A stretch of DNA of 64,000 nucleotides, taken from assembly GCA_964600985.1 (NCBI GenBank), contig CAZRJR010000001.1, positions 45,319-109,318 of the forward strand, given 5' to 3'. The notes below the pieces were generated by a model. The model made no database searches. It was not told the origin of the DNA and saw only the letters and a program-made list of their open reading frames with translations. Made by a program: the position numbers and the translations under genes. Positions 6,304 to 29,920 of the stretch are shown in pieces; the stretch's first letter is position 1, and each line of letters starts with the position of its first letter. The DNA is from an uncultured Candidatus Saccharibacteria bacterium. Its GTDB lineage: Bacteria > Patescibacteriota > Saccharimonadia > CAILAD01 > JADZBC01.

Positions 6304-6359
6304 GGAGCACCGTGCTATCTGATCACGCGGGCCTTCTTTTTGAATTTACACTGTAACTT

Positions 6360-7226: not shown

Positions 7227-7257
7227 TCGTAGTGCCAGTAGCAACTGCTATAAGGAG

Positions 7258-14863: not shown

Positions 14864-16042
14864 ATGAATAAACTCATTTCGGTTCGAAATGTAAACGTAC
14901 ATGGCAAGCGCGTGTTCTTGCGGGTGGATTTTAACGTGCCCATGGAAGGCGCCAAGATTACTGACGATCGCCGCATCGATGCTGCGGTACCTACCATAGA
15001 ATATTTGCTCGACCAGGGTGCGAGCATAATTATAGCGAGCCACTTGGGTAGGCCAGATGGCAAAGTGGTACCAGAGCTTAGTCTGGAGCCGATTGCTGCT
15101 AAGCTCGCCGAGGTGCTAGACAGAAAGGTAGAGTTTGTAGCCGAAGCAGTCGGGCCTAGCGTGCACGAGCAGGCTAGTAAACTCAAACCCGGGCAAATAC
15201 TTATGCTCGAGAACCTACGTTTTTACCCCGACGAAGAAGCTAACGGCATGGAGTTTGCTCGTGAATTAGCAAGTCTCGCCGACGTGTATGTAGATGATGC
15301 TTTTGCTTGTGTGCACAGGGCCCACGCCTCGATTGTAGGCGTGGCGGCCTTACTGCCACATGCGGCTGGGTTCTTGGTCGAAGAAGAATTCCATACATTA
15401 CATGGTTTGCTCGAGAAGCCCGAACACCCGTTCGTGGCAATCATTGGTGGGGCTAAGGTAGCTGATAAGTTTGAACTTTTAGACAACCTTCTTGGTTTGG
15501 TTGATAGTATTGTGATTGGTGGTGCGATGGCCAATACGTTTTTAATCGCGCAAGGCTATGGAGTGGGTAAGAGTGTAGCCGAACCAGAGCTCAAAGACAA
15601 AGTGACTACATTTATTACTAAGGCTGCTAAGCACGAGGTAGAGTTGGTATTACCAACCGACGTAGTGGTTAGCAAATCGCTTGACAGTAAAGAGGCCAAA
15701 ACGGTGACTGTGGACGATATTGAGGGCGATGATATGGCGCTTGATTTGGGGCCAAAGACTACGGAGGCAATTAAGAAAGTTATAGCGTCGAGCAAAACGG
15801 TGTTTTGGAATGGGCCACTTGGCTATACGGAAAACGAAGCCTTTGTTGCTAGTTCGAGCGCTGTGGCTGAAGCCATTATTACTTCTGGAACCCACTCAAT
15901 CATTGGTGGTGGGGACACATCTGGGTTCTTGGATCAATACAGTAAGCCCGATAAGTTTGGGTTTATTTCTACCGGCGGTGGGGCTAGCTTGGAGCTCTTG
16001 GCCGGCAAAGAACTACCTGGGATTGCAGCACTCCAGAAGTAA
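14864..16042 (+). CDS. pgk: phosphoglycerate kinase
   Basis: 392 aa with RVDFNVP and the hinge/GGGA motifs typical of Pgk. Confidence 0.9.
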   Translation: MNKLISVRNVNVHGKRVFLRVDFNVPMEGAKITDDRRIDAAVPTIEYLLDQGASIIIASHLGRPDGKVVPELSLEPIAAKLAEVLDRKVEFVAEAVGPSVHEQASKLKPGQILMLENLRFYPDEEANGMEFARELASLADVYVDDAFACVHRAHASIVGVAALLPHAAGFLVEEEFHTLHGLLEKPEHPFVAIIGGAKVADKFELLDNLLGLVDSIVIGGAMANTFLIAQGYGVGKSVAEPELKDKVTTFITKAAKHEVELVLPTDVVVSKSLDSKEAKTVTVDDIEGDDMALDLGPKTTEAIKKVIASSKTVFWNGPLGYTENEAFVASSSAVAEAIITSGTHSIIGGGDTSGFLDQYSKPDKFGFISTGGGASLELLAGKELPGIAALQK

Positions 16043-16360: not shown

Positions 16361-17722
16361 CTACGGTAGTGCGTAAGTATTACGAATGCGGTGTAGCGCA
16401 AAGATATTACCCAGTGACTGATCGCTACCCGGCACGGTGCTAACCGCAGTGCTAAAGCCAGCTTGCTGGGCTGCGGTAATCGACACCGTATTGTATGAGC
16501 CATACGGGTAGGCAAGTGTAGTAATGCTCAGTCCAAGCTCTTGTTCGAGGCGCTGTTTCGAAGTGGTAATTTGATATACTTGATCGCCGGCGCTGAGCCC
16601 GGCGAGCGCCAGGTGGTCTATCGTGTGGGCACCAATCTCGATTAGTTCGCTGGCCACTAGGCCGCGCACCTCGTCCCAATTCATGTATGAGTCTCCGCAG
16701 GCCAAGCCGGGTGTGCGCTCTATGCCAATGCAGTACTTACTCTTCTCGCCACCGATAATAAGGTAGTAGGTGGCGCGCATTTGGTACTTTTGCAGGATGC
16801 TGAGCGCGCGCAGTTGGTCGCTATAACCATCGTCAAATGTTATCACTAATGGCTTGGGCGGCAGGGTGCAGGTTTTACGTAAGCCGCATGCTACCTGGGC
16901 CATGGTAATGGTGGTGTAACCACGCTTTTGTATAATCTGGAGTTGAGACTCGAAGTCGGTCGGCGTTTTATGATACATAACGATCGGGATAAACGTAGTG
17001 TCATGCACAGGTGCAGCAGCTTGGGCGGCTCCGGCATGCTTTGCTTGCTTGGCTTTTGCCTCAGCGAGCTCTGCAATTTTCTGATCCACGAAGGCATTGT
17101 CGGCGCCTAGTTTGCTTTGGAGTGCAGTAAGTCGCCATATAGCCTCGACCGGTTGAGCTGTAGCGAAGAGCCAATTAATGTGGTCAAGTTCATCGCTGGC
17201 GTTATAAAGCCCAGCAATAATAATGCCGTGTGCTACCTGTTCATCGGCAATGCTATGCTCAGTTAGGCTTGCCTGCTTGTAGTCCTCATAGAGGGTACTC
17301 ACGGCACTAGTGGTTTGTGCAGTACCGGGCTGAAGCACGAAAAAGTTGTGGTGCCAGCGGTGTAATCCAAATGCAATAAGCGCTGTAAGACTCGTAGCTA
17401 ATACAATGCCCCTAAAAACTGCAGTGCTAAAATATTTGCGAGGCTCCTTAGTAGATAATTGTAGAGTAGTCTCTGGTTCGGTCTGAGGTATAACGTGCTC
17501 TATGGGTTCGCCCGAGCGCACGCTTTGGGCTTCCGCCAGCTCAACTGGTGGAGTAGTAGTGATCTCTTGAGTATTCGTGAGATCTGCTTGGACCAACTCC
17601 TGGGTGTTAGGATTAACCTCTGATGGTATAGCCTCGATTTCTAAACGAGGTTTTGCGCGGTATACGGCCTTTTTGCGCGCTTTGGTTTTGCGTGATGAAT
17701 GAGTTCTTTTCGATTTTGCCAT
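16361..17722 (-). CDS. polysaccharide deacetylase (NodB-type) with basic N-terminus and TM anchor
   Basis: NodB motif 1 is TFDDGYSDQ and there is a His motif IGAHTIDH. The N-terminus is KR-rich and a TM helix (VFRGIVLATSLTALIAFGL) follows. Confidence 0.8.
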   Translation of the reverse strand: MAKSKRTHSSRKTKARKKAVYRAKPRLEIEAIPSEVNPNTQELVQADLTNTQEITTTPPVELAEAQSVRSGEPIEHVIPQTEPETTLQLSTKEPRKYFSTAVFRGIVLATSLTALIAFGLHRWHHNFFVLQPGTAQTTSAVSTLYEDYKQASLTEHSIADEQVAHGIIIAGLYNASDELDHINWLFATAQPVEAIWRLTALQSKLGADNAFVDQKIAELAEAKAKQAKHAGAAQAAAPVHDTTFIPIVMYHKTPTDFESQLQIIQKRGYTTITMAQVACGLRKTCTLPPKPLVITFDDGYSDQLRALSILQKYQMRATYYLIIGGEKSKYCIGIERTPGLACGDSYMNWDEVRGLVASELIEIGAHTIDHLALAGLSAGDQVYQITTSKQRLEQELGLSITTLAYPYGSYNTVSITAAQQAGFSTAVSTVPGSDQSLGNIFALHRIRNTYALP

Positions 17723-17791
17723 AGCCAGGGGTTAATGCATGTAACTTATATAGTTTAGCAAACTATTGCCCGGGCGCGTAGGCTACAGACG

Positions 17792-18694
17792 TTATTGCGG
17801 CTTGCCGTATATATAGCCAAAGCTTGTGGCTGGCACCCAACGCTGGCTGACTCGGTTCCAGCCAGCAAAGTTCATTTCGCTAATGAGCACGCTATTGCCT
17901 TCTATACGCTCCACGTAGGCGACGTGACCGTACCAGCCAGCCGGTGTCCAGGCAATTGCACCTGGCACAGGGATATTGCCTGTTAGCCAACCTTCGGCCT
18001 TGGCGTGCGCCATCCAGTCGCGGGCATTGCCCCAGCGGGCTCCGGTAGGTCGTCGGCTAGCTACGTAGTAGGTGCATTGGCCGTAGGCGTAGCCACCGGT
18101 TGCGTAGTATTGAAGTTGCGCCGGTGGTGATGATTTGGAACGAAATGCAGGTAGAGCGGCTGTATCCACTGTGGTTGTAGTAGTGCTGGTTGGCTCGGAC
18201 TTGGTTGGTATGTCCTCCGGTTTGGTTTCGGCCGAGGTTCTGGCGGCATCTTCCTTGGCCTGAGTTGGGCTTGAGTTAGTTGCTAGTTTGGATGATTCAG
18301 GAGGGTTAGCTTTGGCCGGTTCCTGCTCACCACCTACCATAGCTACAATGCCTGTGGGTACCGTGGCAACTTCTTGCCCTACATTTGCAACGGCGCTAGC
18401 CATGGCTAAGTCTCGCGCTACCACGTGACTCTGAGCTTGCTCCAGTACGGCAACTACCCGGGCGTTAAAGCTGTTGCTGGCCGCATTGGCGCGCTGGCTG
18501 AATTGAGTGGCGGTAGCAATCACTTCCTTGCCAAACATGGGCAAGCCCCGTTCGCCATAGTTATAAACTAAGCTGCTTGCTCGTAATACTATAGCACTGG
18601 CGCTCGCTACTAGTGCTAATAGTAAGGCAGACTTGAGCGCATGCTTGCGCTGGCGAGCCTTGGCGCGCGCTGCATCCCTCTGCTGTAAGTGCAT
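17792..18694 (-). CDS. CHAP-domain peptidoglycan hydrolase (membrane-anchored)
   Basis: The C-terminus carries CHAP motifs (GQCTYYVASRR ... GHVAYVE) and an N-terminal TM helix is present. ORF 49736..50908 is a paralog. Confidence 0.8.
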   Translation of the reverse strand: MHLQQRDAARAKARQRKHALKSALLLALVASASAIVLRASSLVYNYGERGLPMFGKEVIATATQFSQRANAASNSFNARVVAVLEQAQSHVVARDLAMASAVANVGQEVATVPTGIVAMVGGEQEPAKANPPESSKLATNSSPTQAKEDAARTSAETKPEDIPTKSEPTSTTTTTVDTAALPAFRSKSSPPAQLQYYATGGYAYGQCTYYVASRRPTGARWGNARDWMAHAKAEGWLTGNIPVPGAIAWTPAGWYGHVAYVERIEGNSVLISEMNFAGWNRVSQRWVPATSFGYIYGKPQ

Positions 18695-18784
18695 GGTATA
18701 AGTATTGATAGCGTTTTCTCCGATAGATCATCGTACCTTATCTGGCAAGCTGATTTCAAGCATAACTACGAACAAAATTCGGTA

Positions 18785-20482
18785 CTATTTTGTGGTGTTT
18801 GGGGTGGTATTCTCGAGCTTACCACTGAGGTCAATGAATTTGTACGGTTGCCACATGTTGTCTATGTAGTGGTTGTCGGGCAGCAGTGGCAAGTTGGTGC
18901 CAAAGTAGGTATTAAACACAGTGCGGAAGGAATTAACCGGTGATATAGTTGGGTAAATAACGCCGGATGGAGCGCCGGGCAAGTAGTAGGCGTTGAGTAT
19001 GCCGGTCTTTTGTTGCAATTCGCTACTAGTAGCTTTGTTCCAGTTAAAGCCCTTAGTGTTGCCATCAAAGCGCTTGGGGTATGGACCTTCGTCAGCCTGC
19101 AGGATAATAATTGGCTGCTTGTTGGGGTTACTGGTTAGCTGGTTAATGAGCTGAGTGACTTGATCATTGGTATACTTCATTTGTTCTATGTAGAGTTGCT
19201 TCTCACTCATAGCTTTACCACGCTGAGCTGGCGCGCCGTTGGCATTGAATACATACGGTGGGTGCGGTAGTAATATGTGAGCAAAGACCATCTTGGGGCC
19301 AGGCGACGGAGCGACGGTACTACGCAGCTGGGCAAGTTCGTATAGGGCACTTTGGGCATGCAGGCTCTGTGCTGGAATGGTGCGTGTGCTAAAAAGTGTA
19401 ACACCACCAAGTTTGTACGTGGCGCCCATATTAACTTGCAAGATACTGCGGCGTAGCAGAATCGACTGGAAGTCGGACACACTAAAGTTATGTCCGAACA
19501 ATGTGACGCCCCGAAACGAGTGTAGGCTAGTGTTGGCACCTGGATTAGAGCGGGTAGGGTCCCACCACGAACCGAGTTGTGTGTAGCTATAGCCTTGCGA
19601 CTTGGCGAAACTCGCCGCACCGTTAGCAAGGATCATACGCTGTGTGAGTTTGGTGGAACTAACGCTGACCTGATCTTTGGCGCTAAGCGTGGGTAAGTAT
19701 TGACCATTGAGTGACGATGCAACCGACTGCACAGTGTACGGGTAGTTAGAGTGGGCGTCGGTAAGTTGAAAACCTTTGGAACTCAGAAAGTTTATAAAGT
19801 CATCGTTGCTAAATCCGTATTGGGTCCGTAGCGTTTCTTGGCTGGCATAACGATCAAGGATAATGTAGTACATATCTGGCTTCTTAGCTGGGGCAGTGCT
19901 GGCCTTGGCACTGGCAAGCGGCGAGCTAATAGGCAGTGCATCGATGCGATAGTTCATTATATGGTAGTGGGCGATTGTGTAACACGTGTAGGCAAGGCTG
20001 GCGCCCATGAACACCGCCACCAGCCTTACCGGGGGCTGCCAGCTTTTAGTCGAACGGCGCATGACGTTGGTAAGCAACACAGCAAATACAATGCAGTACA
20101 GTATGATTATTCTGCTGGTGTGGAAGACTGGATTGCCCAAACCAATGGCCGAGAGCACATCGGTAATGTTGTCCTGGAGTGGTATAAAGGTAAGGATTAT
20201 GAGGAGTAGAGCGCTCGCAAGCAAACTAGCTTTGTACACGTGTCGTAGCAACAACCAGCTAAGGCCGAATAGAAGCACTGCTAGACCAAGGTTACATAAA
20301 AGTGGAACCGCCAGCTGACTAAAGTGCAGTTGACTTTGGTTTACGGCGAACATGGAGACAACGGGCCAAGCCGCGCAGAATATGAGCAAGGCAGCAGCTG
20401 GTAGGTTGCGTAGCAATGCAGATTTAGATAGTTTGCGCGGAGCAGTAAGTGGTTTTTTACTCGGCGGCTGTCGGTGTTTCAC
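18785..20482 (-). CDS. membrane protein with extracellular sulfatase-like (alkaline-phosphatase superfamily, LtaS/MdoB-like) domain
   Basis: 565 aa with about 5 N-terminal TM helices followed by a ~370-aa soluble domain (MYYIILDRYASQETL...). The architecture resembles LtaS/phosphoglycerol transferases. Family assigned with moderate uncertainty. Confidence 0.45.
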   Translation of the reverse strand: MKHRQPPSKKPLTAPRKLSKSALLRNLPAAALLIFCAAWPVVSMFAVNQSQLHFSQLAVPLLCNLGLAVLLFGLSWLLLRHVYKASLLASALLLIILTFIPLQDNITDVLSAIGLGNPVFHTSRIIILYCIVFAVLLTNVMRRSTKSWQPPVRLVAVFMGASLAYTCYTIAHYHIMNYRIDALPISSPLASAKASTAPAKKPDMYYIILDRYASQETLRTQYGFSNDDFINFLSSKGFQLTDAHSNYPYTVQSVASSLNGQYLPTLSAKDQVSVSSTKLTQRMILANGAASFAKSQGYSYTQLGSWWDPTRSNPGANTSLHSFRGVTLFGHNFSVSDFQSILLRRSILQVNMGATYKLGGVTLFSTRTIPAQSLHAQSALYELAQLRSTVAPSPGPKMVFAHILLPHPPYVFNANGAPAQRGKAMSEKQLYIEQMKYTNDQVTQLINQLTSNPNKQPIIILQADEGPYPKRFDGNTKGFNWNKATSSELQQKTGILNAYYLPGAPSGVIYPTISPVNSFRTVFNTYFGTNLPLLPDNHYIDNMWQPYKFIDLSGKLENTTPNTTK

Positions 20483-21891
20483 GCTCGACTCTTCATGAGG
20501 TACATAGTGCGCTTAGAGCCTTTGATCGGCGTGGTCTCAATTATAGTAAAGAAGCGCTTAAACGCAGTTTCAAAGCCTGCTGCATCATAGTCGCCAAACA
20601 CATCCTCGCGACTCATGAGTAAGCGCTTAACCATACTATCTTGTTTGGGTACAAATTCGATAATAAGGTATTTACCAAGGCTGCGAAAGTATTCTGCTAC
20701 GTGCCCAAAGGGTACGTTATTACCAATGGTCAGGTGGTGGATCAGTGCAAGCGCCATGAGAGTATCGGCTGGTCCACGCTGGGCAAGCGAACTACGCTCT
20801 TGGCCCGCCCAGCCAATGCCCGAGCTAGGGTTGGTAAGGTCTACGAGCAGGGGTAGGAGCTTGGTGTTGCTTTCTGACTTGGCATGGAGATAGTTGTGCT
20901 CTATGGCGATAGGGTCGTCGTCAAAGCAGAGCGTGGTTCGATTCCGGGCACTTGCTAGGCGACTAAACACACCGCTATTGCCGCCCAAGTCCCATACTTG
21001 CTTAGCGCGAGTGCGCTCCAGGTAGCGTTCAACAATTGCCTTTTTGTCATTAAAGCTGGCTTTGGTGTAGCTGTGCTTGTCGTAGTAGTCCCCCCAAGTA
21101 GTTTGCTCGCCCTTAGGCTGCCATTTAAGTGAGTTTATGGCGCTCTCTAGACTATGAATGAGGGCGAGCATGCCCTGACGAGACAACTTGGCGGCACTTG
21201 GCTTGTTGTTCGGCGTATTGTTGCCGGCATGCTTAGCCTGCGAGCGAGCATGCAGGTGAATGTGCAGGGCTGTACTTGGCTTAATCCGACTACTGGCTCC
21301 AAGTAGCTTACTGGCTAAATCAAGCGGGACTCCGTCGATATACACGCGCAGGAGTTGGCTGAGCCGAACATCACGCTGTGCCATAAGGGCAAGTGGTGCC
21401 AGGAAGTGCTGGCAGAATTGCTTATATGCCACCCAGGGTTTGCCCTCTTGGTAGGCTTCGAATGACAGCGTGTCAATCATGGTCGGTAGGCCATCGATGA
21501 ACTGAATGTTGTAAGCACTGGCATCCTTGAGGCTCATGCCATGTTCGAGTGCAACTTTTTGTATGTTCAAGGTTGCAAGTGCGGCGTCCTTAAGCTGGCT
21601 AAAGCTCCATTCGTATGGGTAGGAAATAAACTCAACCAAGCTGGGTTTAATGATTTTGTAGACTACCCCACTGTCCTGGGGTGAGGCTGGCTGCTGGTTT
21701 GCATCCATTTCTTTGTGAGCAACGAGGAGCTTGGCTTCGGTGAGCTTATGGTAGAGTCCCGAACTCATCAGGAGTTCATAATCTGCTCTGCACACTTGAT
21801 TGATTTGCCGGTACACCGCGCCGTTATGACTAAACACAAACCCACTTGGGTCGCGAAACGAAGCTGGGTTGGTGTGGATTGCTTCGGTCAT
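20479..21891 (-). CDS. two-domain protein with C-terminal class I SAM-dependent methyltransferase fold
   Basis: 470 aa. Motif I is VWDLGGNSGVFS in the C-terminal half. The N-terminal ~280 aa (SFRDPSGFVF...) is of unknown function. Confidence 0.55.
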   Translation of the reverse strand: MTEAIHTNPASFRDPSGFVFSHNGAVYRQINQVCRADYELLMSSGLYHKLTEAKLLVAHKEMDANQQPASPQDSGVVYKIIKPSLVEFISYPYEWSFSQLKDAALATLNIQKVALEHGMSLKDASAYNIQFIDGLPTMIDTLSFEAYQEGKPWVAYKQFCQHFLAPLALMAQRDVRLSQLLRVYIDGVPLDLASKLLGASSRIKPSTALHIHLHARSQAKHAGNNTPNNKPSAAKLSRQGMLALIHSLESAINSLKWQPKGEQTTWGDYYDKHSYTKASFNDKKAIVERYLERTRAKQVWDLGGNSGVFSRLASARNRTTLCFDDDPIAIEHNYLHAKSESNTKLLPLLVDLTNPSSGIGWAGQERSSLAQRGPADTLMALALIHHLTIGNNVPFGHVAEYFRSLGKYLIIEFVPKQDSMVKRLLMSREDVFGDYDAAGFETAFKRFFTIIETTPIKGSKRTMYLMKSRA

Positions 21892-21893
21892 AC

Positions 21894-22169
21894 CTACGAG
21901 CTTTTTTGGACTGATTGCTTAGTTTCTTTAGTGGGTGATTCTGGGCCGGCTTTAGCTTTTTTGTGAAAGATTCCGCCGAAGAATGCACTGATTTGCTTCC
22001 AGAAAACTTTTACAAGGTACGATACGGTGGCCAAGGCGGCGATTACGATCTGTACAATACTCGATCCCATACCCGGGTCGAGGTAAGCGTGGGCTGGTTT
22101 TGGCACAACTTGCCACAGGATTAAACTTAGTATAAAAAGGTGCGACGCAAAGACTAAAATTCGTTTCAT
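21894..22169 (-). CDS. small hypothetical membrane protein
   Basis: MKRILVFASHLFILSLILWQV... is the internal Met of ORF 21894..22205. It has two hydrophobic segments and abuts the gene downstream. Confidence 0.35.
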   Translation of the reverse strand: MKRILVFASHLFILSLILWQVVPKPAHAYLDPGMGSSIVQIVIAALATVSYLVKVFWKQISAFFGGIFHKKAKAGPESPTKETKQSVQKSS

Positions 22170-22291
22170 AGTGATTCCATTTAGGTTTTTATAATTATGG
22201 ACCAAGTCGCGATTGACTTACGAGGAGGGAGAAATAGCAAATTCCTTCTTACTATTGTAGACCACTCCAGCTGAAGATCAACTTAACTGGG

Positions 22292-23689
22292 CTACGAAGG
22301 GGGCGTATAGCGGGGGCCATCGCCAACCGAGAAGATCCGCGGACTATCGCCATCGGGGAGATTGATGAGAGTTACATGGCGCCCATTCTCATACCCGCCA
22401 GCGTGGAGAAGTGCGGGGTGATAGATGGCGCCACTCTCAAAGTCATATTCGCCATCCGGCGTGTTTGGTGGGGGGCAGTTACCTACTCGAATAGCGAATT
22501 TAGATCCAGAAACGGCTTCTTGAGTTAAGTTTGAGCCGTAGAGGCCAACTGGACCATTGACGCCGCGATAGCACCACATCCACACATCGTCTCTAAGTAG
22601 GCTGAGTGTTGCAGCTACGCTCCCTACATTATTGCCGTCGTTCCAGCCCGCACCGTAGCCAAATATCTCATCGATTTGCCAGGCGGAACCATTCCACCAC
22701 ACATGGTTATGGCGTGTATCGTGCGACAGTGAGGGAATGGTTGAACTATCGTTAGCCCCTGAGCCTGTCGCTATGAAGTGAAAGTGCCCATCCTTATCTA
22801 CACACCTGCCACCCGCCGTGGCTCCACCGATACTAACTCCACCTACTTTAATCGCGGCTGCGCCAACGCCAGCTACACCATCGAGCGTAGTACGGTAGGT
22901 AAATGGTGCGGTAACTGCTTCACCCAATACATTCTCCCAGGTACTACCCTTGTCGTGGCTGCGCACATAAAAGTATTCGGACATGGTGGAAGGTGTGCTG
23001 GTCGACATACGCCATACATATACACAGTGCAATGTGTCTTGGAGATCTACGAACGAATGAAGTAAATAGGCGCGGTCAGGAATATCGTCAGTGTCGGCTG
23101 CGTTATCCACGCCTAGATTTGGCGTAGTCATAATTTCGCCCGTGCCCACACAGGGCTGCCAAGTATCTCCAGGATTTGGTCCGAGTCGCCACATAGTCTG
23201 GTCGCGACCAACCGGGTTGGCAGTATCTGACTGATCCTGGTGCCATATGAGCGTGCCATCCGAGAACACCTCGTAAGCCTGGTAGGTAGTATAATTAGCG
23301 CCCGAGGTAAGCCAGTTAGCTGGGTTTGGTGCTTGGGCCCAGCTGGATATGTTATGCGGGCTCGTTGATTTTATGTACTTCATGGGTTGCTGGTGGCCGT
23401 TTCCGGATATGTGTATGTAGCCCTGGGCATCTACTGCTAAAGCTGCCGCGAAGTGTGAGTCCGAAACTTCAATTGGCCCAAAGGTAGCCGAGGCGGTTCC
23501 TGGCGTAGCTACATTGGTTACGTCTACGGTTGTCCACGAGGTACTGGTGCGCGGCCGTTGACAAACCAATAGCCGCCAGTCAACAGTAGTAACCAGGCAG
23601 TACTCGTAGTTGGCGGTGCGCCAAACGGTCGGCCAAGCCGAGGCAGTACCGTTGCGAGCGTTGCCGAGGGCTGTTGCGTAGCCAGCCAT
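22292..23689 (-). CDS. BNR/Asp-box repeat beta-propeller protein (sialidase-like glycosidase fold)
   Basis: 465 aa. SHDKGSTW is a canonical Asp-box (SxDxGxTW). The Trp/Gly/Asp-rich repetitive composition fits a propeller. It starts 5 nt after the stop of the fibre-like gene upstream. Confidence 0.6.
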   Translation of the reverse strand: MAGYATALGNARNGTASAWPTVWRTANYEYCLVTTVDWRLLVCQRPRTSTSWTTVDVTNVATPGTASATFGPIEVSDSHFAAALAVDAQGYIHISGNGHQQPMKYIKSTSPHNISSWAQAPNPANWLTSGANYTTYQAYEVFSDGTLIWHQDQSDTANPVGRDQTMWRLGPNPGDTWQPCVGTGEIMTTPNLGVDNAADTDDIPDRAYLLHSFVDLQDTLHCVYVWRMSTSTPSTMSEYFYVRSHDKGSTWENVLGEAVTAPFTYRTTLDGVAGVGAAAIKVGGVSIGGATAGGRCVDKDGHFHFIATGSGANDSSTIPSLSHDTRHNHVWWNGSAWQIDEIFGYGAGWNDGNNVGSVAATLSLLRDDVWMWCYRGVNGPVGLYGSNLTQEAVSGSKFAIRVGNCPPPNTPDGEYDFESGAIYHPALLHAGGYENGRHVTLINLPDGDSPRIFSVGDGPRYTPPS

Positions 23690-23694
23690 GTGGC

Positions 23695-25086
23695 CTACGC
23701 CCTATGAAGCTTTACTACTGCCGAATTGAGTACCATGTCTATCTGTGCGCCAGTCGTAGAGAAGGTGGTATAGGCACGAATAGTGTGAGTTCCCGATTGA
23801 TCAATGCTCGATGTTGCCGAGCCGACCGATGTAGTACCGGTGACCGCCCATCCAGCAGTTGAACCGTTGGAGAGGTGGAAGATGCCCGAACTTGATTGTG
23901 TGCTAAGGCTCGAACCGATTACTATTTCGATAGCAGCACGCCATTTGCGTCGATCGGCATTGGCGGCTACACTCGTCATGGTATCAGTCATAACAAGCGT
24001 GTCGGCAATGTAGAGTCGAAAACCAAGATCTATGGCAGAACCCGAATCATTGTTAAATGTACCGGCTAAGGTGAGTTCAATTACATCACCAGTTTGTAGC
24101 TTTCCACTCGCGACTGAGTATGAGTACAGGTCACCATTAGAGGTGACAGTGCTTGGTGTGGCGCTGGAATCGAGTACATGGGTACCGCTCGAATCTACAT
24201 ACGACTTGGTGGTAACGTCGTTTGCATCCACGGGTGTAGCGGCCGATAGTATGGTGAAACGACCAGTTGCCGAGGAGCTCATAAACGCCGAGCCGTTAGC
24301 TGTGGTTATGCCTAGTCCTGGTGTTCCAAATGCGTTACCAAGCCCTGCGTAGTAGCCTGTGGGTACATCGGTAGGGTAGGCTAGTACCGAGCCTGCTCCA
24401 ACTGTAACCACTCCATTACCACTGGGGTCTACAGTGAGGTTACCCGTCATGGTGCCGCCAGACTTTTGAAGACTCGACGTGAACTCAGACTCATTCACAC
24501 TAATGGTAGATATACCAGTAACTGGTGCAGATATGTCTATGCCGGCACCCGCTACGAGCTCTGGCGCACCGAGCTGCGAGTTTACATATTGCTTGGTGGT
24601 GGCGTCGGTGGCATTAACTGGTTCGGGTACGGTAACTGTGCCGGTAAAGGTGGGGCTTGCTAGGGGGGCTTTGCTGGCTAGATCACTGGTAAGGTTGGCT
24701 ATCTTGGACTGAGCAATCGCCGCACTACTGTTTACGTTGGCATCCACAATTGCATTGGCTGCTATTTGCGGACTGTCCGCAGTGCCGGCTAAGTCGCCTG
24801 CCAATTGAATCTTGCCCTTCGAGGAGGTAGTGGCATCGGCCACTCCCGAGGAAACAAGCCCATCGGCGTAGGCTTTGGTAACGGCCTGATTGGCACTGGT
24901 GGGTGTAGGTACAGTTACACTACCGGTAAAAGTAGGGTTGGCAAGCGGCGCATAGCTAGCCAGCGTACCACCCGACTTAAGCGTACCGTCGCTATTATGC
25001 TCTACGCCAAGGTACTCATTAAGGACTTCTCCCCAAGTGCCTTTGTCGCCTCCTGGCTGCGGTAACCGTGCCAACTCCACCTCCAT
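23695..25086 (-). CDS. phage-tail-fibre-like surface protein (paralog 2)
   Basis: 463 aa. Its N-terminus (LARLPQPGGDKGTWGEVLNEYLGVEHNSDGTLKSGGTLASYAP) matches ORF 2218..4128. It has three tail-fibre repeats of the form (A/S)NPTFTG.VTVP.P...A.TK.Y(A/V)(D/N), with Ser/Thr/Gly-rich beta-strand regions after them. Confidence 0.75.
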   Translation of the reverse strand: MEVELARLPQPGGDKGTWGEVLNEYLGVEHNSDGTLKSGGTLASYAPLANPTFTGSVTVPTPTSANQAVTKAYADGLVSSGVADATTSSKGKIQLAGDLAGTADSPQIAANAIVDANVNSSAAIAQSKIANLTSDLASKAPLASPTFTGTVTVPEPVNATDATTKQYVNSQLGAPELVAGAGIDISAPVTGISTISVNESEFTSSLQKSGGTMTGNLTVDPSGNGVVTVGAGSVLAYPTDVPTGYYAGLGNAFGTPGLGITTANGSAFMSSSATGRFTILSAATPVDANDVTTKSYVDSSGTHVLDSSATPSTVTSNGDLYSYSVASGKLQTGDVIELTLAGTFNNDSGSAIDLGFRLYIADTLVMTDTMTSVAANADRRKWRAAIEIVIGSSLSTQSSSGIFHLSNGSTAGWAVTGTTSVGSATSSIDQSGTHTIRAYTTFSTTGAQIDMVLNSAVVKLHRA

Positions 25087-25210: not shown

Positions 25211-25555
25211 GTGGAGAGAATGAAGCGGGTAGGGCAGATTCTAGGAATATTGGTTGCTAGTTTGGTGCTATGCTCCTGGTGTGCAGTGCCAACTGCAGCG
25301 CGGGCCGACAATAGCTATTCGTGTGGCACCTATAGCGCGGGCGATTACCAAGCTGGCTCGTGCGATGCGGGTGTTGTGGACCAGGTGACCCAGCCAATTA
25401 CGAACTTTATAAACAACACACTACCGGCAACTGGTACCACCATTCCGGTATTTATAGGTGCAGCCGTAGTCACACTCGGCGGGCTTGGGGTGTATCTGGT
25501 TCTCAAAAGGCGTCGTAAGAATTCTGAGCAGGAAAACGTTTCAATTGAGGGTTAG
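25211..25555 (+). CDS. small LPXTG cell-wall-anchored surface protein (sortase substrate)
   Basis: 114 aa. It has an N-terminal signal peptide and the C-terminal sorting signal LPATG, followed by a hydrophobic segment and the KRRRK tail. Confidence 0.7.
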   Translation: MERMKRVGQILGILVASLVLCSWCAVPTAARADNSYSCGTYSAGDYQAGSCDAGVVDQVTQPITNFINNTLPATGTTIPVFIGAAVVTLGGLGVYLVLKRRRKNSEQENVSIEG

Positions 25556-26333: not shown

Positions 26334-26825
26334 TCAGTACGACCAGTAGTCGCCGTAGTCGGAGAACGGGTCGTCGTAGTCGTAGCGACGGTGGCCGACG
26401 TCGACGAGGCTGAAGGCGAAGTCGCCTTCGTCATCAGACTCCATCTCGCGAGCGGAGGCCTCATCGTCTCGACACCACCAGCAGAGCTTCTCGCCACCAC
26501 AGGTGATGTACCAGGTCTCGGCGTCCTCATCGAACACCAGGTGATGCAGGCGCTCGTCCTCGAGGACCTGCATCCGGAAGAGGCGCCGACCGAGCTCGTC
26601 GTGGGTGCGGTAGTCGTCGACGTGGATGCCGAGATCGAAACGCACGGTGACCAGGGCCTTCTTGCCGGGGGTGAACGAGACACCGGGGCCGTTGAACGGG
26701 CCGTAGGGTCCTGGGATCGGCAGCACATCGACGAGTGTGCGGTCGAGGATCTGGAGGGTGACGTTGACCTGGCGCTCAGCGGCGAGCAGCAGGTCTTTCG
26801 AGGTGCCCTCGTACTCGATGGACAT
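26334..26825 (-). CDS. hypothetical acidic protein on high-GC insert
   Basis: It starts at the internal Met (MSIEYEG...) of ORF 26334..26915. Over a sampled 60 nt the minus frame shows the canonical high-GC codon pattern (GC3 ~85% > GC1 > GC2 ~40%), whereas the antisense ORF 26391..26894 does not. Two Cys pairs are present (CGG...CWWC). Confidence 0.45.
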   Translation of the reverse strand: MSIEYEGTSKDLLLAAERQVNVTLQILDRTLVDVLPIPGPYGPFNGPGVSFTPGKKALVTVRFDLGIHVDDYRTHDELGRRLFRMQVLEDERLHHLVFDEDAETWYITCGGEKLCWWCRDDEASAREMESDDEGDFAFSLVDVGHRRYDYDDPFSDYGDYWSY

Positions 26826-26946
26826 GTTTTCCAGGAGGCACATGGCCGTCCCTTTCATGATCGTCTTGGATGGGTGCGAACTGACAGAACTTAACGTTCG
26901 TCGTAATAATAGCATAAAAATAATAAATTGTCAAGACTGGTGATCC

Positions 26947-26965
26947 CGCGGGGAATACTAGATGT
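26947..26965. repeat. 19-bp direct duplicate of the tRNA-Glu 3' end (att-like)
   Basis: tggtgatcccgcggggaat matches 27103..27121 exactly (reverse complement: T-arm 3' half + acceptor + CCA of tRNA-Glu). Confidence 0.9.
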
Positions 26966-27102: not shown

Positions 27103-27177
27103 TGGTGATCCCGCGGGGAATCGAACCCCGATTGCCAGGATGAAAACCTGGTGTCCTAACCGTTAGACGACGGGACC
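27103..27177 (-). tRNA. tRNA-Glu (anticodon TTC), CCA encoded
   Basis: The reverse complement reads GGTCCCGTCGTCTAACGGTTAGGACACCAGGTTTTCATCCTGGCAATCGGGGTTCGATTCCCCGCGGGATCACCA. It is closely similar in architecture to E. coli tRNA-Glu, and the anticodon loop is TTTTCAT. Confidence 0.85.
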
Positions 27178-27624: not shown

Positions 27625-28107
27625 TCAGCCGCCGTCGACCGGTTGGCCGACGCTCACCTCATTGGTCGAGGTGTCCACCACCTTGCACTTCACACCCTTG
27701 GTGTACGGGGTGGCGTGCTTGGCGTCCGGCGGCAGGATCTGGGCCTGTCGGCACGTTGTGACGACCGTGTGGCCATCCGTGGTCTTCACCACCTTCCCGT
27801 GGGTAACCATCACGTGGTCGCATCTGTTGCCATCCGCGAAGGTCGCGTCGAGGTTCAGGCTGTGCGCCTTCATGTAGGCGCGGTAGCCAGCCTTGATGGC
27901 ATCCTGCTGCCCCTGGCACTTGCCGGCGTTGTAGCCGTGGTTGAAGCCATCCTCGTAGCGGTGGGTGTGATACTGGGAGGCCCAGTAACACATTCCGGCG
28001 ATGATCGCCAAGCTGATCACAAGGATCGGCACGGCGGGGATGTAGGGGCGACTGCCAGTCACCCCATCGGTGCCCTTGCGGGCGGTGTCTGGTGTGGGGG
28101 AGGCCAT
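27625..28107 (-). CDS. hypothetical membrane-anchored/secreted protein on high-GC insert
   Basis: 160 aa with an N-terminal TM/signal segment (IPAVPILVISLAIIAGMCYWA) and an extracytoplasmic domain with 4 Cys. Its composition is more protein-like than the low-complexity Ala/Gly/Arg-rich antisense ORFs. Confidence 0.4.
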   Translation of the reverse strand: MASPTPDTARKGTDGVTGSRPYIPAVPILVISLAIIAGMCYWASQYHTHRYEDGFNHGYNAGKCQGQQDAIKAGYRAYMKAHSLNLDATFADGNRCDHVMVTHGKVVKTTDGHTVVTTCRQAQILPPDAKHATPYTKGVKCKVVDTSTNEVSVGQPVDGG

Positions 28108-29101: not shown

Positions 29102-29920
29102 ATGAGTAATAGGGCTACATTGGTAGTGGCGAACTGGAAGATGCACCTGCGGGTGACGGAGAGCTTGGCGCTTGTGGAGCGCCTAGGTAAGCAAGTGGAG
29201 ACTAAGGCTAACACCGAGGTGGTGTTGTGTCCGCCAGTGAGTGCTGCAGGTACGATAAAGCTTTATATGGAGGCGCACGAGCTAGAATTCAGCCTGGGCG
29301 TACAGAATGTAAACGAGCGTGACGAAGGCGCATATACCGGCGAAGTATCTGCTGCTATGGTGCGGGGTTTAGCCAAATACGCCATTTGTGGTCATTCCGA
29401 GCGGCGTATATACAGTCGTGAAACAAGTAAACAGGTCGCAGCCAAAGTAGCGGCCTGTGTGCGCAATGGTATTCGACCAATTCTGTGTGTGGGCGAGAAT
29501 TTAACCGAGCGCGAGGCACGGCACGGTAAACGACGCGTGTTGGACCAGCTACGGGTGGGGTTGAGTCTAGTGCCGCGGAGTGAGGCTGGTGGGCTAGTAG
29601 TAGCTTACGAACCAGTCTGGGCCATTAGCACCACGAAGCATACTCGACACGCCAACCCTGACGACATTGCGCCTATGCTACAAGCTATTCGCCACGAGCT
29701 CGAGGAGATCTATGGCGAGGAGGTAGGCGCCCAAATTCGAGTGCTCTACGGGGGGAGTGTGGACAGCCATAATGCCGGTGCATACCTGGGTCTCGATGAT
29801 TGCCATGGGTTACTAGTAGGAAATGCAAGCCTAAATTGGGCAGAGTTTAGCGCTATAGTACGCACGGCCCAAGATCGCGACCGTGGACAGCCTCGACACC
29901 AAGCAGTTGGCGCCGTATAA
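29102..29920 (+). CDS. tpiA: triosephosphate isomerase
   Basis: Contains VANWKMH, CGHSERR and AYEPVWAI motifs. The C-terminal ~20 aa may be over-extended. Confidence 0.85.
   Translation: MSNRATLVVANWKMHLRVTESLALVERLGKQVETKANTEVVLCPPVSAAGTIKLYMEAHELEFSLGVQNVNERDEGAYTGEVSAAMVRGLAKYAICGHSERRIYSRETSKQVAAKVAACVRNGIRPILCVGENLTEREARHGKRRVLDQLRVGLSLVPRSEAGGLVVAYEPVWAISTTKHTRHANPDDIAPMLQAIRHELEEIYGEEVGAQIRVLYGGSVDSHNAGAYLGLDDCHGLLVGNASLNWAEFSAIVRTAQDRDRGQPRHQAVGAV

What the first reader, a model, noticed from the sequence alone, without database searches (positions are those of the whole stretch)
16361..25086. 8.7-kb co-directional envelope/host-interaction locus headed by a tail-fibre-like gene
Seven consecutive minus-strand genes run with short gaps or overlaps (5, 86, 2, -4, 90 and 69 nt). 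In transcription order they are: the fibre-like protein (25086..23695); a BNR/Asp-box beta-propeller with the Asp-box SHDKGSTW, a sialidase-like fold (23689..22292); a small membrane protein; a 470-aa protein with a C-terminal SAM-methyltransferase fold; a 5-TM plus extracellular sulfatase-like (LtaS/MdoB-like) membrane protein; a membrane-anchored CHAP peptidoglycan peptidase; and a membrane-anchored NodB polysaccharide deacetylase. A receptor-binding fibre, a glycan-cleaving propeller, a CHAP lysin and a deacetylase together resemble a phage virion-associated cell-wall-penetration toolkit, but here the genes are embedded among genes that look cell-intrinsic (LtaS-like, methyltransferase, all with TM anchors). 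An LPXTG protein gene is divergently transcribed from the locus head (25211..25555). This could be a dedicated system for attaching to and remodelling a partner cell's wall, or an unusual envelope polymer biosynthesis/decoration locus. I cannot tell which from sequence alone.
Basis: inference. Interest (0 to 1): 0.75.

Follow-up and report, generated by a model that had tools for sequence, protein, structure and literature searches.

The report
Three unrelated gene sets, one phage-like
The seven-gene run is real but is a patchwork of three independently inherited gene sets in a variable slot of a Saccharibacteria genome; the most interesting set is a conserved phage-type tail-fibre plus glycan-cleaving propeller pair that sits outside any prophage.

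Summary
All seven minus-strand ORFs, their gaps and their domain calls are confirmed. They do not behave as one system.

In four related Saccharibacteria the order kinase–pgk–[variable]–tRNA-Glu–tpiA is conserved. The pgk→tRNA-Glu slot there holds nothing, only the NodB gene, or only the CHAP gene. Here it holds 11 kb.

- **Module A (fibre + BNR_4 propeller).** The two genes are adjacent in all four known occurrences, and elsewhere none of the other five genes is next to them. Neither protein has an export signal. The fibre starts with a conserved head, MARLPxPGxDxGxWGxxLN. In viral contigs this head opens tail proteins, in three of them encoded directly after the tape measure. A paralogue at 2230..4128 shares the head and carries a tailspike-like β-helix.
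- **Module B (small YLDPGxGS membrane protein + 470-aa methyltransferase + sulfatase-type membrane protein).** This cassette occurs across bacteria with 30–69% GC. None of 80 loci carries modules A or C.
- **Module C (CHAP, NodB).** These look like resident wall enzymes.

Best reading: a mosaic. The phage-derived receptor-binding pair is kept under selection, possibly for binding a partner's surface glycans. Its export route and its target are unknown.

The parts
23695..25074 (-). Module A, gene 1: phage-type tail-fibre-like protein. The ORF is open from 25086; the likely start is TTG 25074. It has the head MARLPQPGGDKGTWGEVLNEYLGVEHNSDGTLK, then DUF5907 and two NPTFTG-type repeats, then a C-terminal all-beta domain ending KLHRA.
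   Evidence: Pfam DUF5907. The head motif sits at residue ~3 in 87 of the 120 best homologues. The head also opens tail proteins in viral contigs. There is no TM helix or signal peptide. SD and TTG start. The AF2 model is poor overall; only residues ~320-463 are beta-rich with pLDDT 60-78.
22292..23689 (-). Module A, gene 2: BNR_4 (GH145/PL42-type) beta-propeller, 5 nt downstream of the fibre gene, with no export signal.
   Evidence: Pfam BNR_4 80.9 bits. PDB matches to GH145 chains 5MVH, 5MUM, 4IRT and 5MUK. H79 and H99 align with BT3686 H90 and H110 and are invariant in the 4 homologues. The gene follows a fibre gene in 4 of 4 occurrences. It matches a Klebsiella phage MY01 tail spike at E 1e-9.
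25211..25555 (+). Small LPATG sortase substrate, divergent from the fibre gene. The mature part is about 45 aa with two Cys.
   Evidence: LPXTG models pass their cut-offs. A 58%-identical homologue is also divergent from the fibre gene in L086. In L001 the divergent upstream gene is instead an unrelated 53-aa two-helix peptide; L087 also has a 53-aa gene at that position, whose sequence was not read.
21894..22205 (-). Module B, gene 1: small membrane protein with a signal-like helix, the motif AYLDPGMGS, a TM helix and a basic tail. The probable start is near 22169.
   Evidence: Hydropathy. Homologues lie directly upstream of the methyltransferase in 58 of 76 loci. The motif (A)Y[LI]DPG[ST]GS is present in 62 of 77 loci. 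No Pfam or NCBIfam family matches.
20479..21891 (-). Module B, gene 2: cytoplasmic two-domain protein. It has an unassigned alpha/beta N-domain (residues 1 to about 230) and a class I SAM methyltransferase domain.
   Evidence: More than 8000 homologues at 55-65% identity, with source names from several phyla. AF2 pLDDT 81. The WbdD methyltransferase domain, MePCE and BCDIN3D are among the top structural neighbours. The N-domain has no Pfam or PDB sequence match.
18785..20482 (-). Module B, gene 3: membrane protein with 4-5 TM helices and an extracytoplasmic sulfatase/alkaline-phosphatase-superfamily domain (LtaS/EptA-like architecture). It overlaps the methyltransferase gene by 4 nt.
   Evidence: Pfam Sulfatase. 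TM helices. A homologue lies directly downstream of the methyltransferase in 26 of 45 loci long enough to judge, often as two copies. Conserved D210, H402, H407 and D464; ILQADEGP replaces the consensus ADHG. No NCBIfam or PDB sequence match.
17792..18694 (-). Module C: membrane-anchored CHAP peptidoglycan hydrolase.
   Evidence: Pfam CHAP; partial PcsB-model match of 73.9 bits against a cut-off of 450. A 57%-identical orthologue is alone at the same slot in L006. A second CHAP+LysM gene lies at 49736..50908.
16361..17722 (-). Module C: membrane-anchored NodB-type polysaccharide deacetylase.
   Evidence: Pfam Polysacc_deac_1. Orthologues sit at the same slot in L007 (52% identity) and L005 (81% identity over the C-terminal 143 aa, at the contig end).
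27103..27177 (-). tRNA-Glu(UUC). Its 3' end faces the variable slot. It is conserved at this position in L004, L006 and L007.
26938..26956 (.). Exact 19-nt duplicate of the tRNA-Glu 3' end (TGGTGATCCCGCGGGGAAT), 146 nt beyond the tRNA. It resembles an att-type scar.
   Evidence: 0.01 matches expected by chance. L004 has a similar partial duplicate.
2230..4128 (+). Paralogue of the fibre outside the finding. It has the same head and DUF5907 (72% identity over the first 104 aa), then a pectate-lyase-like right-handed beta-helix, i.e. tailspike-like.
14864..16042 (+). pgk, the left anchor of the conserved synteny. tpiA (29102..29920, +) is the right anchor, 13 kb away.

Best explanation
The 8.7-kb run is a mosaic of three functionally independent gene sets. 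They are packed head to tail in a variable chromosomal slot between pgk and the 3' end of tRNA-Glu in a Saccharimonadales (Saccharibacteria) genome.

**Module A (25074..22292, probably with the divergent LPATG gene).** This is a phage-derived receptor-binding pair.
- The fibre's N-terminal head is the same module that opens tail-fibre and tailspike proteins in phage structural operons.
- Behind the head come fibrous DUF5907/NPTFTG repeats and a beta-sandwich tip.
- The second gene encodes a BNR_4 propeller that keeps the two histidines of the PL42-type (lyase) pocket.
- Inferred: the fibre binds a cell-surface glycan and the propeller cuts it, as a phage fibre/depolymerase pair does. The pair is kept by selection as one member of a small family of such proteins in these genomes; a second member lies at 2230..4128. 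The most likely target is the envelope of a partner or host cell.
- How proteins without export signals reach the surface is not known.

**Module B (22205..18785).** This is a self-contained cassette found across many bacteria. It encodes a small YLDPGxGS membrane protein, a cytoplasmic methyltransferase with an extra N-domain, and an LtaS/EptA-like membrane enzyme.
- Inferred: it adds or modifies a phospho-substituent on an envelope lipid or polymer of the cell itself.

**Module C (18694..16361).** This consists of a CHAP hydrolase and a NodB deacetylase, both membrane-anchored. They are long-standing residents of the slot.
- Inferred: they act on the cell's own peptidoglycan.

Co-directionality and short gaps reflect gene packing in a small genome, not a common function.
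For: **Synteny.** HK-pgk-[variable]-tRNA-Glu-...-tpiA-ppa-G5/Rpf-ksgA-transglutaminase is conserved in L004 and L007, and in L006 as far as its contig reaches (pgk 71-75% identical); L005 ends inside the slot.
- The pgk to tRNA-Glu slot is about 0.7 kb and empty in L004.
- It holds only NodB in L007 (and NodB in L005, whose contig ends there) and only CHAP in L006.
- Window 18.7-26.15 kb has no counterpart in L006.

**Module A.**
- The propeller subfamily has 4 clusters in the 5.8-billion-protein search. Each is encoded directly after a DUF5907 fibre gene.
- In L001 the pair lies between ABC1 and tatC, without modules B or C.
- The head motif is present in 87 of 120 homologues, which carry many different C-termini.
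- 26 viral contigs encode proteins that start with the head.
- In L221 and L226 the preceding gene is a PHROG-confirmed tape measure. L216 has the same layout, with an 810-aa gene in that place that was not annotated. In L205 and L210 the gene lies among portal, head and adaptor genes.
- The head matches Streptomyces phages at 62-65% identity (E down to 1e-7). The repeat matches minor tail proteins of Gordonia phages. In total 168 of 180 matching phage records come from phages of Actinobacteria.
- The propeller matches a phage tail spike and viral contigs L232 and L234.
- No phage hallmark genes flank either fibre-type gene: the unassigned flanking ORFs have no PHROG match, and the other neighbours have housekeeping Pfam assignments.
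- All four pairs have intact ORFs at 52-70% identity.

**Module B.**
- The small protein lies directly upstream of the methyltransferase in 58 of 76 loci.
- The sulfatase-type gene lies directly downstream in 26 of 45 loci.
- Locus GC ranges from 30 to 69%.
- None of the 80 loci has CHAP, NodB, BNR_4 or a fibre gene.
- The closest relative, L203, is the same three genes at another locus.

**Composition.** Codon usage of all seven genes is native (GC3 0.46-0.57).
Against: - Only four syntenic relatives were available, so 'ancestral resident' versus 'insertion' cannot be polarised with certainty.
- Fibre genes do sit beside glycan-active genes repeatedly in relatives: NodB in L168, a GDSL esterase in L172 and a ConA-like protein in L170. 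A looser functional link between fibres and wall enzymes is therefore not excluded.
- Nothing here shows that the fibre or the propeller is expressed, exported or surface-exposed.
- The lack of a signal peptide fits a cytoplasmic or virion role at least as well as an adhesin role.
- The fibre model is too poor to confirm a fibre fold.
- The biochemical activities of modules A and B are inferred from family resemblance only.
Confidence: 0.7

Rival explanations
1. Single dedicated system. All seven genes form one operon whose products together attach to a partner cell and breach or remodel its wall.
For: - The seven genes are co-directional with gaps of -4 to 90 nt.
- Five of the seven products are membrane or extracytoplasmic proteins.
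- Fibre genes neighbour NodB, GDSL or lectin-like genes in other Saccharimonadales.
- Phage virions often carry both depolymerases and lysins (established knowledge).
Against: - The modules are never found together elsewhere.
- CHAP alone (L006) or NodB alone (L007) occupies the same slot in relatives that lack a fibre gene there.
- The three-gene cassette is spread over bacteria with 30-69% GC, most of which are unlikely to be epibionts.
- The methyltransferase is cytoplasmic.
Confidence: 0.08
2. Decaying prophage or integrative island at tRNA-Glu. The fibre, the propeller, CHAP (as an endolysin) and perhaps NodB are what remains of an element that integrated at the tRNA 3' end. Relatives have kept different leftovers.
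For: - The slot abuts the 3' end of tRNA-Glu, and a 19-nt copy of that end lies 146 nt away.
- Slot content varies between relatives.
- The fibre and propeller are phage-type proteins.
- CHAP matches PHROG 28649 over 230 residues.
- Foreign GC-rich ORFs flank the tRNA.
Against: - No PHROG match was found for the unassigned ORFs around the slot, and no integrase, terminase, capsid or tape-measure assignment appeared among the ORFs scanned with Pfam or PHROGs.
- The seven genes have native codon usage.
- The fibre-propeller pair is intact and conserved at a different locus, next to tatAC, in relatives.
- A paralogue sits among housekeeping genes 20 kb away.
- The repeat pair delimits only 146 nt, and a similar duplicate exists in L004, whose slot is empty.
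Confidence: 0.12
3. Intracellular phage-interference or virion-hijack function. The fibre-type proteins stay in the cytoplasm. There they use their virion-attachment head to join or block the tails of an infecting phage. This would act as a decoy or poison, or would re-target progeny, as satellites do with helper virions.
For: - There are no export signals on the fibre, the propeller or the propeller's wider subfamily.
- The head module is the part that, in phages, is encoded right after the tape measure, a position consistent with tail attachment.
- Several paralogues share one head but carry different tips.
Against: - This is purely inferential.
- No satellite hallmark genes are nearby.
- PADLOC was not run, so no match to a known defence system was looked for.
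- The tips are glycan-binding or glycan-cleaving modules, which would have no role inside the cell.
Confidence: 0.07

Closest known systems
Tail fibre, tailspike and minor tail proteins of tailed phages, especially phages of Actinobacteria (Gordonia, Streptomyces, Arthrobacter and Microbacterium phages)
   Same: - The N-terminal head MARLPxPGxDxGxWGxxLN, DUF5907 and NPTFTG-type repeats are shared.
- The design is modular: one head with swappable tips.
- There is no signal peptide.
- In viral contigs the head-bearing gene follows the tape measure or lies among portal, head and adaptor genes.
   Different: - Here the genes lie among housekeeping genes of a cellular genome, with no other phage gene within the 64-kb window.
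- At least two copies occur per genome.
- The genes are conserved as intact ORFs in several Saccharimonadales.
BNR_4 family (PF15892): GH145 alpha-L-rhamnosidase BT3686 and PL42 L-Rha-alpha-1,4-GlcA lyase FoRham1; BNR_4-like C-terminal part of the Klebsiella phage MY01 tail spike
   Same: - The Pfam match is well above its threshold, and the Asp-box is present.
- The two histidines of the anterior, lyase-type pocket are conserved (H79, H99).
- A phage tail spike carries a related domain.
   Different: - Identity to the solved GH145 chains is limited to two short stretches (E about 1e-9).
- The NCBIfam rhamnosidase equivalog scores 55 bits against a cut-off of 700.
- There is no signal peptide, whereas the characterised enzymes are secreted.
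- The substrate is unknown.
LtaS / EptA / OpgB (MdoB) membrane-anchored alkaline-phosphatase-superfamily transferases
   Same: - The architecture matches: an N-terminal bundle of 4-5 TM helices followed by an outward-facing sulfatase-type domain.
- The Pfam Sulfatase match passes its cut-off, and metal-site-like D/H residues are conserved.
   Different: - No NCBIfam or PDB sequence match to any characterised member.
- DHG is replaced by DEG in this protein.
- The gene is tightly linked to a cytoplasmic methyltransferase and a YLDPGxGS small protein, which is not a known feature of those enzymes (my knowledge).
WbdD, the bifunctional kinase-methyltransferase that caps the E. coli O9a O-antigen with methyl phosphate
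   Same: - Like WbdD, it is a two-domain cytoplasmic enzyme encoded beside envelope genes.
   Different: - The domain order is reversed.
- The N-domain could not be shown to be a kinase; only a D-x4-N ... D-x-L-S-F motif pattern suggests it, and that is my inference.
- There is no coiled-coil tail.
PcsB-type CHAP hydrolases and PgdA/PgaB-type NodB deacetylases of Gram-positive cell walls
   Same: The catalytic domains are present with an N-terminal membrane anchor.
   Different: Scores are far below the equivalog cut-offs (73.9 against 450; 73.3 against 321.9), so only the superfamily is assigned.
tRNA-linked genomic islands
   Same: The region is variable, abuts the 3' end of a tRNA gene, and has a short direct repeat of that end.
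   Different: There is no integrase, the composition is native, and the repeat pair spans only 146 nt.

Membership tests
Phage tail fibre / receptor-binding protein | N-terminal module shared with virion tail proteins | tested here: met
   The head motif opens proteins encoded after a PHROG-confirmed tape measure (L221, L226; same layout in L216, where the preceding gene was not annotated) or among portal/head/adaptor genes (L205, L210).
Phage tail fibre / receptor-binding protein | Fibrous repeat region | tested here: met
   DUF5907 scores 38.5 bits against a cut-off of 27. There are two PLA(N/S)PTFTG(S/T)VTVP repeats. Weak matches to tail-fibre PHROGs.
Phage tail fibre / receptor-binding protein | Encoded within a phage structural gene cluster or prophage | tested here: not met
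   The neighbours are pgk, tpiA, wall enzymes and housekeeping genes. The unassigned flanking ORFs have no PHROG match.
Phage tail fibre / receptor-binding protein | Trimeric fibre fold with a distal binding domain | tested here: inconclusive
   The AF2 monomer model has mean pLDDT 49.9. Only residues ~320-463 form a moderately confident beta-sandwich. No multimer prediction is available.
BNR_4 / GH145 / PL42 propellers | Pfam BNR_4 above the gathering score, with an Asp-box | tested here: met
   80.9 bits against 27.3; SHDKGSTW.
BNR_4 / GH145 / PL42 propellers | Anterior-pocket histidine pair (FoRham1 H85/H105 = BT3686 H90/H110) | tested here: met
   H79 and H99 align to H90 and H110 of 5MUK and are invariant in the 4 homologues. 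The arginine neutraliser was not checked.
BNR_4 / GH145 / PL42 propellers | GH145 posterior catalytic His48, rhamnosidase equivalog | tested here: not met
   The NCBIfam equivalog scores 55 bits against a cut-off of 700. The alignments do not reach the His48 region.
LtaS/EptA/OpgB-type transferases | N-terminal multi-TM region plus extracytoplasmic sulfatase-type domain | tested here: met
   4 strong TM helices at residues 29-137; Pfam Sulfatase over residues 229-483.
LtaS/EptA/OpgB-type transferases | Sequence membership in a characterised subfamily and an intact metal/nucleophile site | tested here: inconclusive
   No NCBIfam or PDB sequence hit. D210, H402, H407 and D464 are conserved, but DHG is DEG here. 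The nucleophile was not identified.
WbdD-like kinase-methyltransferase | Class I SAM methyltransferase domain | tested here: met
   [not shown]
WbdD-like kinase-methyltransferase | Protein-kinase-like domain, in the order methyltransferase then kinase then coiled coil | tested here: not met
   The methyltransferase domain is C-terminal. The N-domain has no Pfam or PDB sequence match even as a profile. A kinase-like motif is my inference only.
Sortase substrate (LPXTG) | Signal peptide, LPXTG, hydrophobic helix, basic tail | tested here: met
   LPATG at residues 71-75, helix at 80-98, then KRRRK; TIGR01167 22.7 bits against 15.9.
tRNA-integrated island / prophage | Integrase and flanking att repeats that delimit the element | tested here: not met
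   No integrase was found. The only tRNA-derived repeat pair spans 146 nt.
Single operon / one functional system | Gene order conserved in relatives | tested here: not met
Single operon / one functional system | One transcript | not testable with these tools
   Consensus scans are at chance level. RNA data are needed.

The most novel reading that the evidence does not exclude
Saccharimonadales epibionts keep a small chromosomal repertoire of phage-type receptor-binding proteins. These share one virion-attachment-type head and carry swappable glycan-binding or glycan-cleaving tips: a beta-sandwich followed by a BNR_4 lyase-like propeller, a pectate-lyase beta-helix, a GDSL esterase, or a ConA-like lectin. 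The modules are related to those in tail proteins of phages that infect Actinobacteria, the phylum these epibionts live on. The cell would use them, rather than a virus, to recognise and locally digest the host's envelope. Export or mounting would occur by an unknown route. The recurrent adjacency to tatAC and to a tiny LPXTG-anchored peptide may be clues to that route.
Probability: 0.25. Interest if true: 0.8.

Novelty: new variant of a known kind. Interest (0 to 1): 0.45.

Why it matters
How ultrasmall Saccharibacteria recognise and hold on to particular actinobacterial hosts is largely open. The papers retrieved here implicate type IV pili and mention no fibre-type proteins.

A conserved family of phage receptor-binding-type genes lies outside any prophage. 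Its modules are shared with actinobacteriophage tail proteins. This gives a concrete, testable candidate for host recognition or, alternatively, for interaction with phages.

Separately, the work isolates a very widespread, uncharacterised three-gene envelope cassette. Its methyltransferase has more than 8000 homologues that stay about 57% identical, with source names from several phyla. That cassette deserves a function.

For the scan itself, the result is a caution. In small, gene-dense genomes, co-directional tight packing is not evidence of a common system.

Tried and rejected
- An exact look-up of the fibre product P0001 found no contig. The propeller product was used instead.
- Single-protein scans of viral contigs with the fibre and the propeller found nothing. 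Alignments were needed. One alignment was too diverse to use.
- The first viral scan, with the whole fibre alignment, recovered only repeat-region relatives without the head. That would have suggested wrongly that the head is absent from viruses.
- The fibre AF2 model was too poor (pLDDT 49.9) to justify a fold search.
- I asked whether the 465-aa protein after the fibre in L172 is a hidden propeller. It is not. It is another head-bearing protein.
- I asked whether the longer (~650 aa) propeller relatives are fibre-propeller fusions. They are not. They carry an internal insertion of about 200 aa and the same N-terminus.
- The conserved N-terminus of the propeller as a docking peptide is rejected, because it is conserved across the whole subfamily as part of the fold.
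- The GC-rich ORF 26334..26915 had no match in the phage or plasmid collections.
- Cluster look-up gave no organism names.
- Literature searches for DUF5907 and for tail fibres in Saccharibacteria returned nothing relevant.
- Promoter and terminator scans are uninformative.

Full report
**1.

The seven minus-strand ORFs are at the stated coordinates, and the stated spacings follow from those coordinates.

Pfam and NCBIfam confirm these calls:
- DUF5907 in the first gene.
- BNR_4 in the second, with the Asp-box SHDKGSTW.
- A Sulfatase domain in the fifth.
- CHAP in the sixth.
- Polysacc_deac_1 in the seventh.
- An LPXTG anchor in the divergent gene 25211..25555.

A hydropathy scan shows the following:
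- One N-terminal helix in CHAP and one in NodB.
- Four strong helices in the sulfatase-type protein.
- A signal-like helix plus one TM helix in the small protein.
- No candidate export or anchor segment in the fibre, the propeller or the methyltransferase.

The fibre probably starts at TTG 25074, preceded by GGAGG. That gives MARLP..., the N-terminus of its homologues and of the public 459-aa gene call.

**2. The organism and the neighbourhood**

The few source names given for homologues are Candidatus Saccharimonadales. The closest pgk loci are Saccharibacteria and Patescibacteria MAGs.

The rest of the window is housekeeping. It encodes OTCase, NAD kinase, MurB, a histidine kinase, pgk, tpiA, pyrophosphatase, a G5/Rpf protein, KsgA, aminoacyl-tRNA synthetases, FtsA, UvrD and a second CHAP+LysM protein.

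pgk (14864..16042) and tpiA (29102..29920) are normally neighbours (my knowledge). Here they are 13 kb apart.

**3. The seven genes sit in a variable slot**

In L004 and L007 the order HK–pgk–[x]–tRNA-Glu–small GC-rich ORFs–tpiA–ppa–G5/Rpf–ksgA–transglutaminase is conserved. L006 shows it as far as its contig reaches. L005 ends inside the slot.

The content of the pgk→tRNA-Glu slot differs:

| Genome | Slot content |
|---|---|
| L004 | about 0.7 kb, no gene |
| L007 | only the NodB gene (52% identity) |
| L005 | NodB (81% identity; contig ends there) |
| L006 | only the CHAP gene (57% identity) |
| Window | NodB, CHAP, the five other genes, the LPATG gene and a GC-rich ORF |

DNA and translated comparisons place the block without counterpart in L006 at about 18.7–26.15 kb.

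The slot faces the 3' end of tRNA-Glu. An exact 19-nt copy of that end lies 146 nt away. A similar partial copy exists in L004. No integrase was found.

The seven genes have native codon usage (GC3 0.46–0.57; core genes 0.40–0.59). Two flanking ORFs (26334..26915 and 27625..28107) have GC3 0.82–0.86.

**4. Module A: fibre plus propeller**

*The pair is always together.*
- The word-indexed search found only four clusters of the propeller subfamily.
- The exhaustive HMMER search of 1.84 billion representatives found 442 relatives at E≤1e-3 and only 15 at E≤1e-30.
- In every one of the four occurrences the propeller gene lies 2–7 nt downstream of a DUF5907 fibre gene: window/L084, L001/L002, L086 and L087.
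- In L001 the pair lies between ABC1 and tatC/tatA, with none of the other five genes.
- In L086 a 58%-identical LPATG peptide gene is again divergent from the fibre gene.

*The fibre has a conserved head.*
- The fibre's first ~35 residues are a sharply conserved head, M[AST]RLPxPGxDxGxWGxxLNxFLxVEHNxDGTLK.
- It sits at the extreme N-terminus of 87 of the 120 best homologues. These are 256–807 aa long.
- Their C-termini include pectate-lyase β-helix, GDSL esterase, Peptidase_S74, Collar and phage-tail-repeat domains.

*The window holds a second member.*
- The paralogue at 2230..4128 is 72% identical over the first 104 residues and unrelated afterwards.
- Its remainder is a pectate-lyase-like β-helix with tailspike and minor-tail PHROG matches.
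- L168 and L172 also carry two head-bearing genes each.

**5. The head and the propeller are phage-virion modules**

A scan of IMG/VR with the head alone found 26 viral contigs (GC 0.34–0.69) whose proteins start with it.
- In L221 the order is major head, major tail, tape measure (812 aa; PHROG 991, E 1e-52), then the head-bearing protein (tail-spike PHROG 2234).
- L226 shows a tape measure followed by the head-bearing protein in the same way. L216 has the same layout, but its 810-aa upstream gene was not annotated.
- L205 (GC 0.63) has portal and major head genes, then the head-bearing protein, then a head–tail adaptor.
- L210 has portal and major head genes, then the head-bearing gene, then a virion structural protein.

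Among cultured phages:
- The head matches Streptomyces phages at 62–65% identity (E down to 1e-7).
- The DUF5907 piece matches minor tail proteins of Gordonia phages. These matches are individually weak (E about 0.01) and come largely from closely related phages.
- In total 168 of 180 matching records are from phages of Actinobacteria (156 Gordonia, 6 Streptomyces, 5 Corynebacterium, 1 Rhodococcus).
- The paralogue's segments match Gordonia, Arthrobacter, Microbacterium and Streptomyces phage proteins.
- In Streptomyces phage GiJojo the head-bearing gene lies in a tRNA array, not in the tail cluster. The module is therefore not exclusively structural.

The propeller has phage relatives too:
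- It matches the C-terminal part of the 1335-aa tail spike of Klebsiella phage MY01 (24% identity, E 1e-9).
- It matches PHROG 23037.
- It has relatives in viral contigs. In L232 the relative lies next to genes that look like head genes. In L234 it lies downstream of a 1216-aa gene that looks like a tape measure.
- None of the six propeller relatives read in full has a signal peptide.

By contrast, none of the unassigned ORFs around the two window genes has a PHROG match.

**6. What the propeller may do**

BNR_4 contains GH145 (BT3686) and PL42 (FoRham1). Both act on Rha-α1,4-GlcA. In FoRham1 the anterior pocket uses His85 as base/acid, with His105 beside it. These correspond to BT3686 His90 and His110 (PMC8377490).

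The phmmer alignment to 5MUK puts window His79 and His99 on those positions. Both are invariant in the four homologues and nearly so in more distant ones.

The rhamnosidase equivalog model is far below threshold.

I therefore predict a glycan-cleaving enzyme, possibly a lyase acting at a uronic acid, with unknown substrate. This is an inference.

**7. Module B: a widespread three-gene cassette**

- The methyltransferase has more than 8000 homologues at 55–65% identity. Source names include Omnitrophota, Bacteroidota, Anaerolineae, Luteimonas and Acetivibrio.
- In 80 metagenome loci (GC 30–69%), a homologue of the small protein lies directly upstream on the same strand in 58 of 76 loci with room to judge.
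- A sulfatase-type gene lies directly downstream in 26 of 45 such loci, often in two copies.
- The small ORF carries (A)Y[LI]DPG[ST]GS, a TM helix and a W·K[IV]K tail in 62 of 77 loci.
- None of the 80 loci has a CHAP, NodB, BNR_4 or fibre gene.
- The closest relative (65% identity; L203) is the same three genes, flanked by TrmB regulators.

Structural neighbours of the methyltransferase domain include three enzymes that methylate phosphate groups: WbdD, MePCE and BCDIN3D. The scores barely exceed those of many other methyltransferases.

The N-domain (residues 1–230) has invariant K122, N128 and D140, and near-invariant D123, in a D-x4-N…D pattern that reminds me of kinase-like folds. No search supports this.

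The sulfatase-type protein keeps D210, H402, H407 and D464, but has DEG where relatives have DHG.

My inference is that the cassette installs or modifies a phospho-substituent on an envelope lipid or polymer of the cell that carries it.

**8. Module C**

CHAP and NodB are membrane-anchored. They have orthologues at the same slot in relatives and match only superfamily-level models. A second CHAP enzyme is encoded elsewhere in the window.

They are most simply enzymes that act on the cell's own wall.

**9. Synthesis and uncertainty**

The run is a mosaic, and I hold this with good confidence. The functional reading of module A is less certain.
- For an adhesin/depolymerase role: intact conservation, multiple paralogues with glycan-active tips, and kinship with tail proteins of phages that infect the host phylum.
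- Against it: the absence of any export signal. That fits a phage-relic or an intracellular phage-interference role equally well.

Two recurrent neighbours are unexplained.
- tatA/tatC lies next to fibre genes in L001, L003, L170 and L172, in different orientations. The head is not a twin-arginine signal.
- The tiny LPATG peptide lies next to the fibre gene in the window and in L086.

Fibre genes also neighbour NodB (L168), a GDSL esterase (L172) and a ConA-like protein (L170).

**10. Verdict**

- The single-system interpretation is not supported as a whole.
- Every component belongs to a known kind.
- What is unusual is the chromosomal, prophage-free, multi-copy retention of phage receptor-binding modules in an epibiont lineage, together with the uncharacterised but very widespread cassette B.

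Noticed in passing
window 2230..4128 (+): This is a second head-bearing, DUF5907-containing protein with a pectate-lyase-like beta-helix (tailspike-like). It is 72% identical to the fibre over the first 104 aa and lies among OTCase, NAD kinase, DUF1801 and MurB genes.
   Followed up: yes
window 26334..26915 (-) and 27625..28107 (-): Two ORFs flanking tRNA-Glu have GC3 0.82-0.86, against 0.40-0.59 for core genes. They have no Pfam or PHROG family and no match in the phage or plasmid collections. The second has one TM helix and has homologues at the same place in L004 and L007. They look like foreign, high-GC genes, possibly of actinobacterial origin.
   Followed up: partly
window 26938..26956 and 27103..27121: There is an exact 19-nt duplicate of the 3' end of tRNA-Glu, 146 nt downstream of the tRNA. 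L004 has a similar partial duplicate although its slot is empty.
   Followed up: partly
L001 12489-13707; L003 8446-9697; L170 5733-7044; L172 4162-5405: tatA/tatC lie next to head-bearing fibre genes in four Saccharimonadales contigs, in convergent, co-directional and divergent arrangements. The head has no twin-arginine signal. This is unexplained.
   Followed up: partly
L168 8001-12673: In another Saccharimonadales genome (GCA_039916945.1) two head-bearing DUF5907 genes flank a 518-aa polysaccharide deacetylase gene. In L172 a fibre gene is followed by a second head-bearing gene and a GDSL esterase. In L170 it is followed by a ConA-like lectin/glucanase-fold protein.
   Followed up: partly
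window 21894..22205 (-); L088-L167 upstream of the methyltransferase: This is a small-protein family with the motif (A)Y[LI]DPG[ST]GS followed by a TM helix and a W.K[IV]K tail, present in 62 of 77 loci. It matches no Pfam or NCBIfam family.
   Followed up: partly
window 20479..21891 (-): The 470-aa methyltransferase stays about 57% identical across relatives whose source names span several phyla and whose loci range from 30 to 69% GC. Its sulfatase-type partner is only 25-35% identical. Such strong constraint suggests a universal substrate or partner.
   Followed up: partly
window 18785..20482 (-), residues 462-466: The usual DHG metal motif of the sulfatase-type domain reads DEG here (ILQADEGP). 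The same is true of both tandem copies in L150. Other relatives have ADHG or GDHG.
   Followed up: no
window 14864..16042 and 29102..29920: pgk and tpiA are separated by 13 kb here and by 2.5-4.9 kb in relatives. tRNA-Glu is always between them.
   Followed up: yes
window 49736..50908 (+): This is a second CHAP peptidoglycan hydrolase, carrying a LysM domain, in a housekeeping context.
   Followed up: no
L231 (Streptomyces phage GiJojo PP725410.1) 5956-7398: The phage gene that carries the head motif (gp34, annotated hypothetical) lies inside a large tRNA array and is followed by a peptidase gene. It is not in the tail gene cluster.
   Followed up: no
P0246, P0247, P0250, P0254; L232 17-1987: Several propeller relatives of about 650 aa, one of them on a viral contig, carry an internal insertion of about 200 aa with a '(L)TGWAS' motif that looks like a carbohydrate-binding module. 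All lack signal peptides.
   Followed up: no
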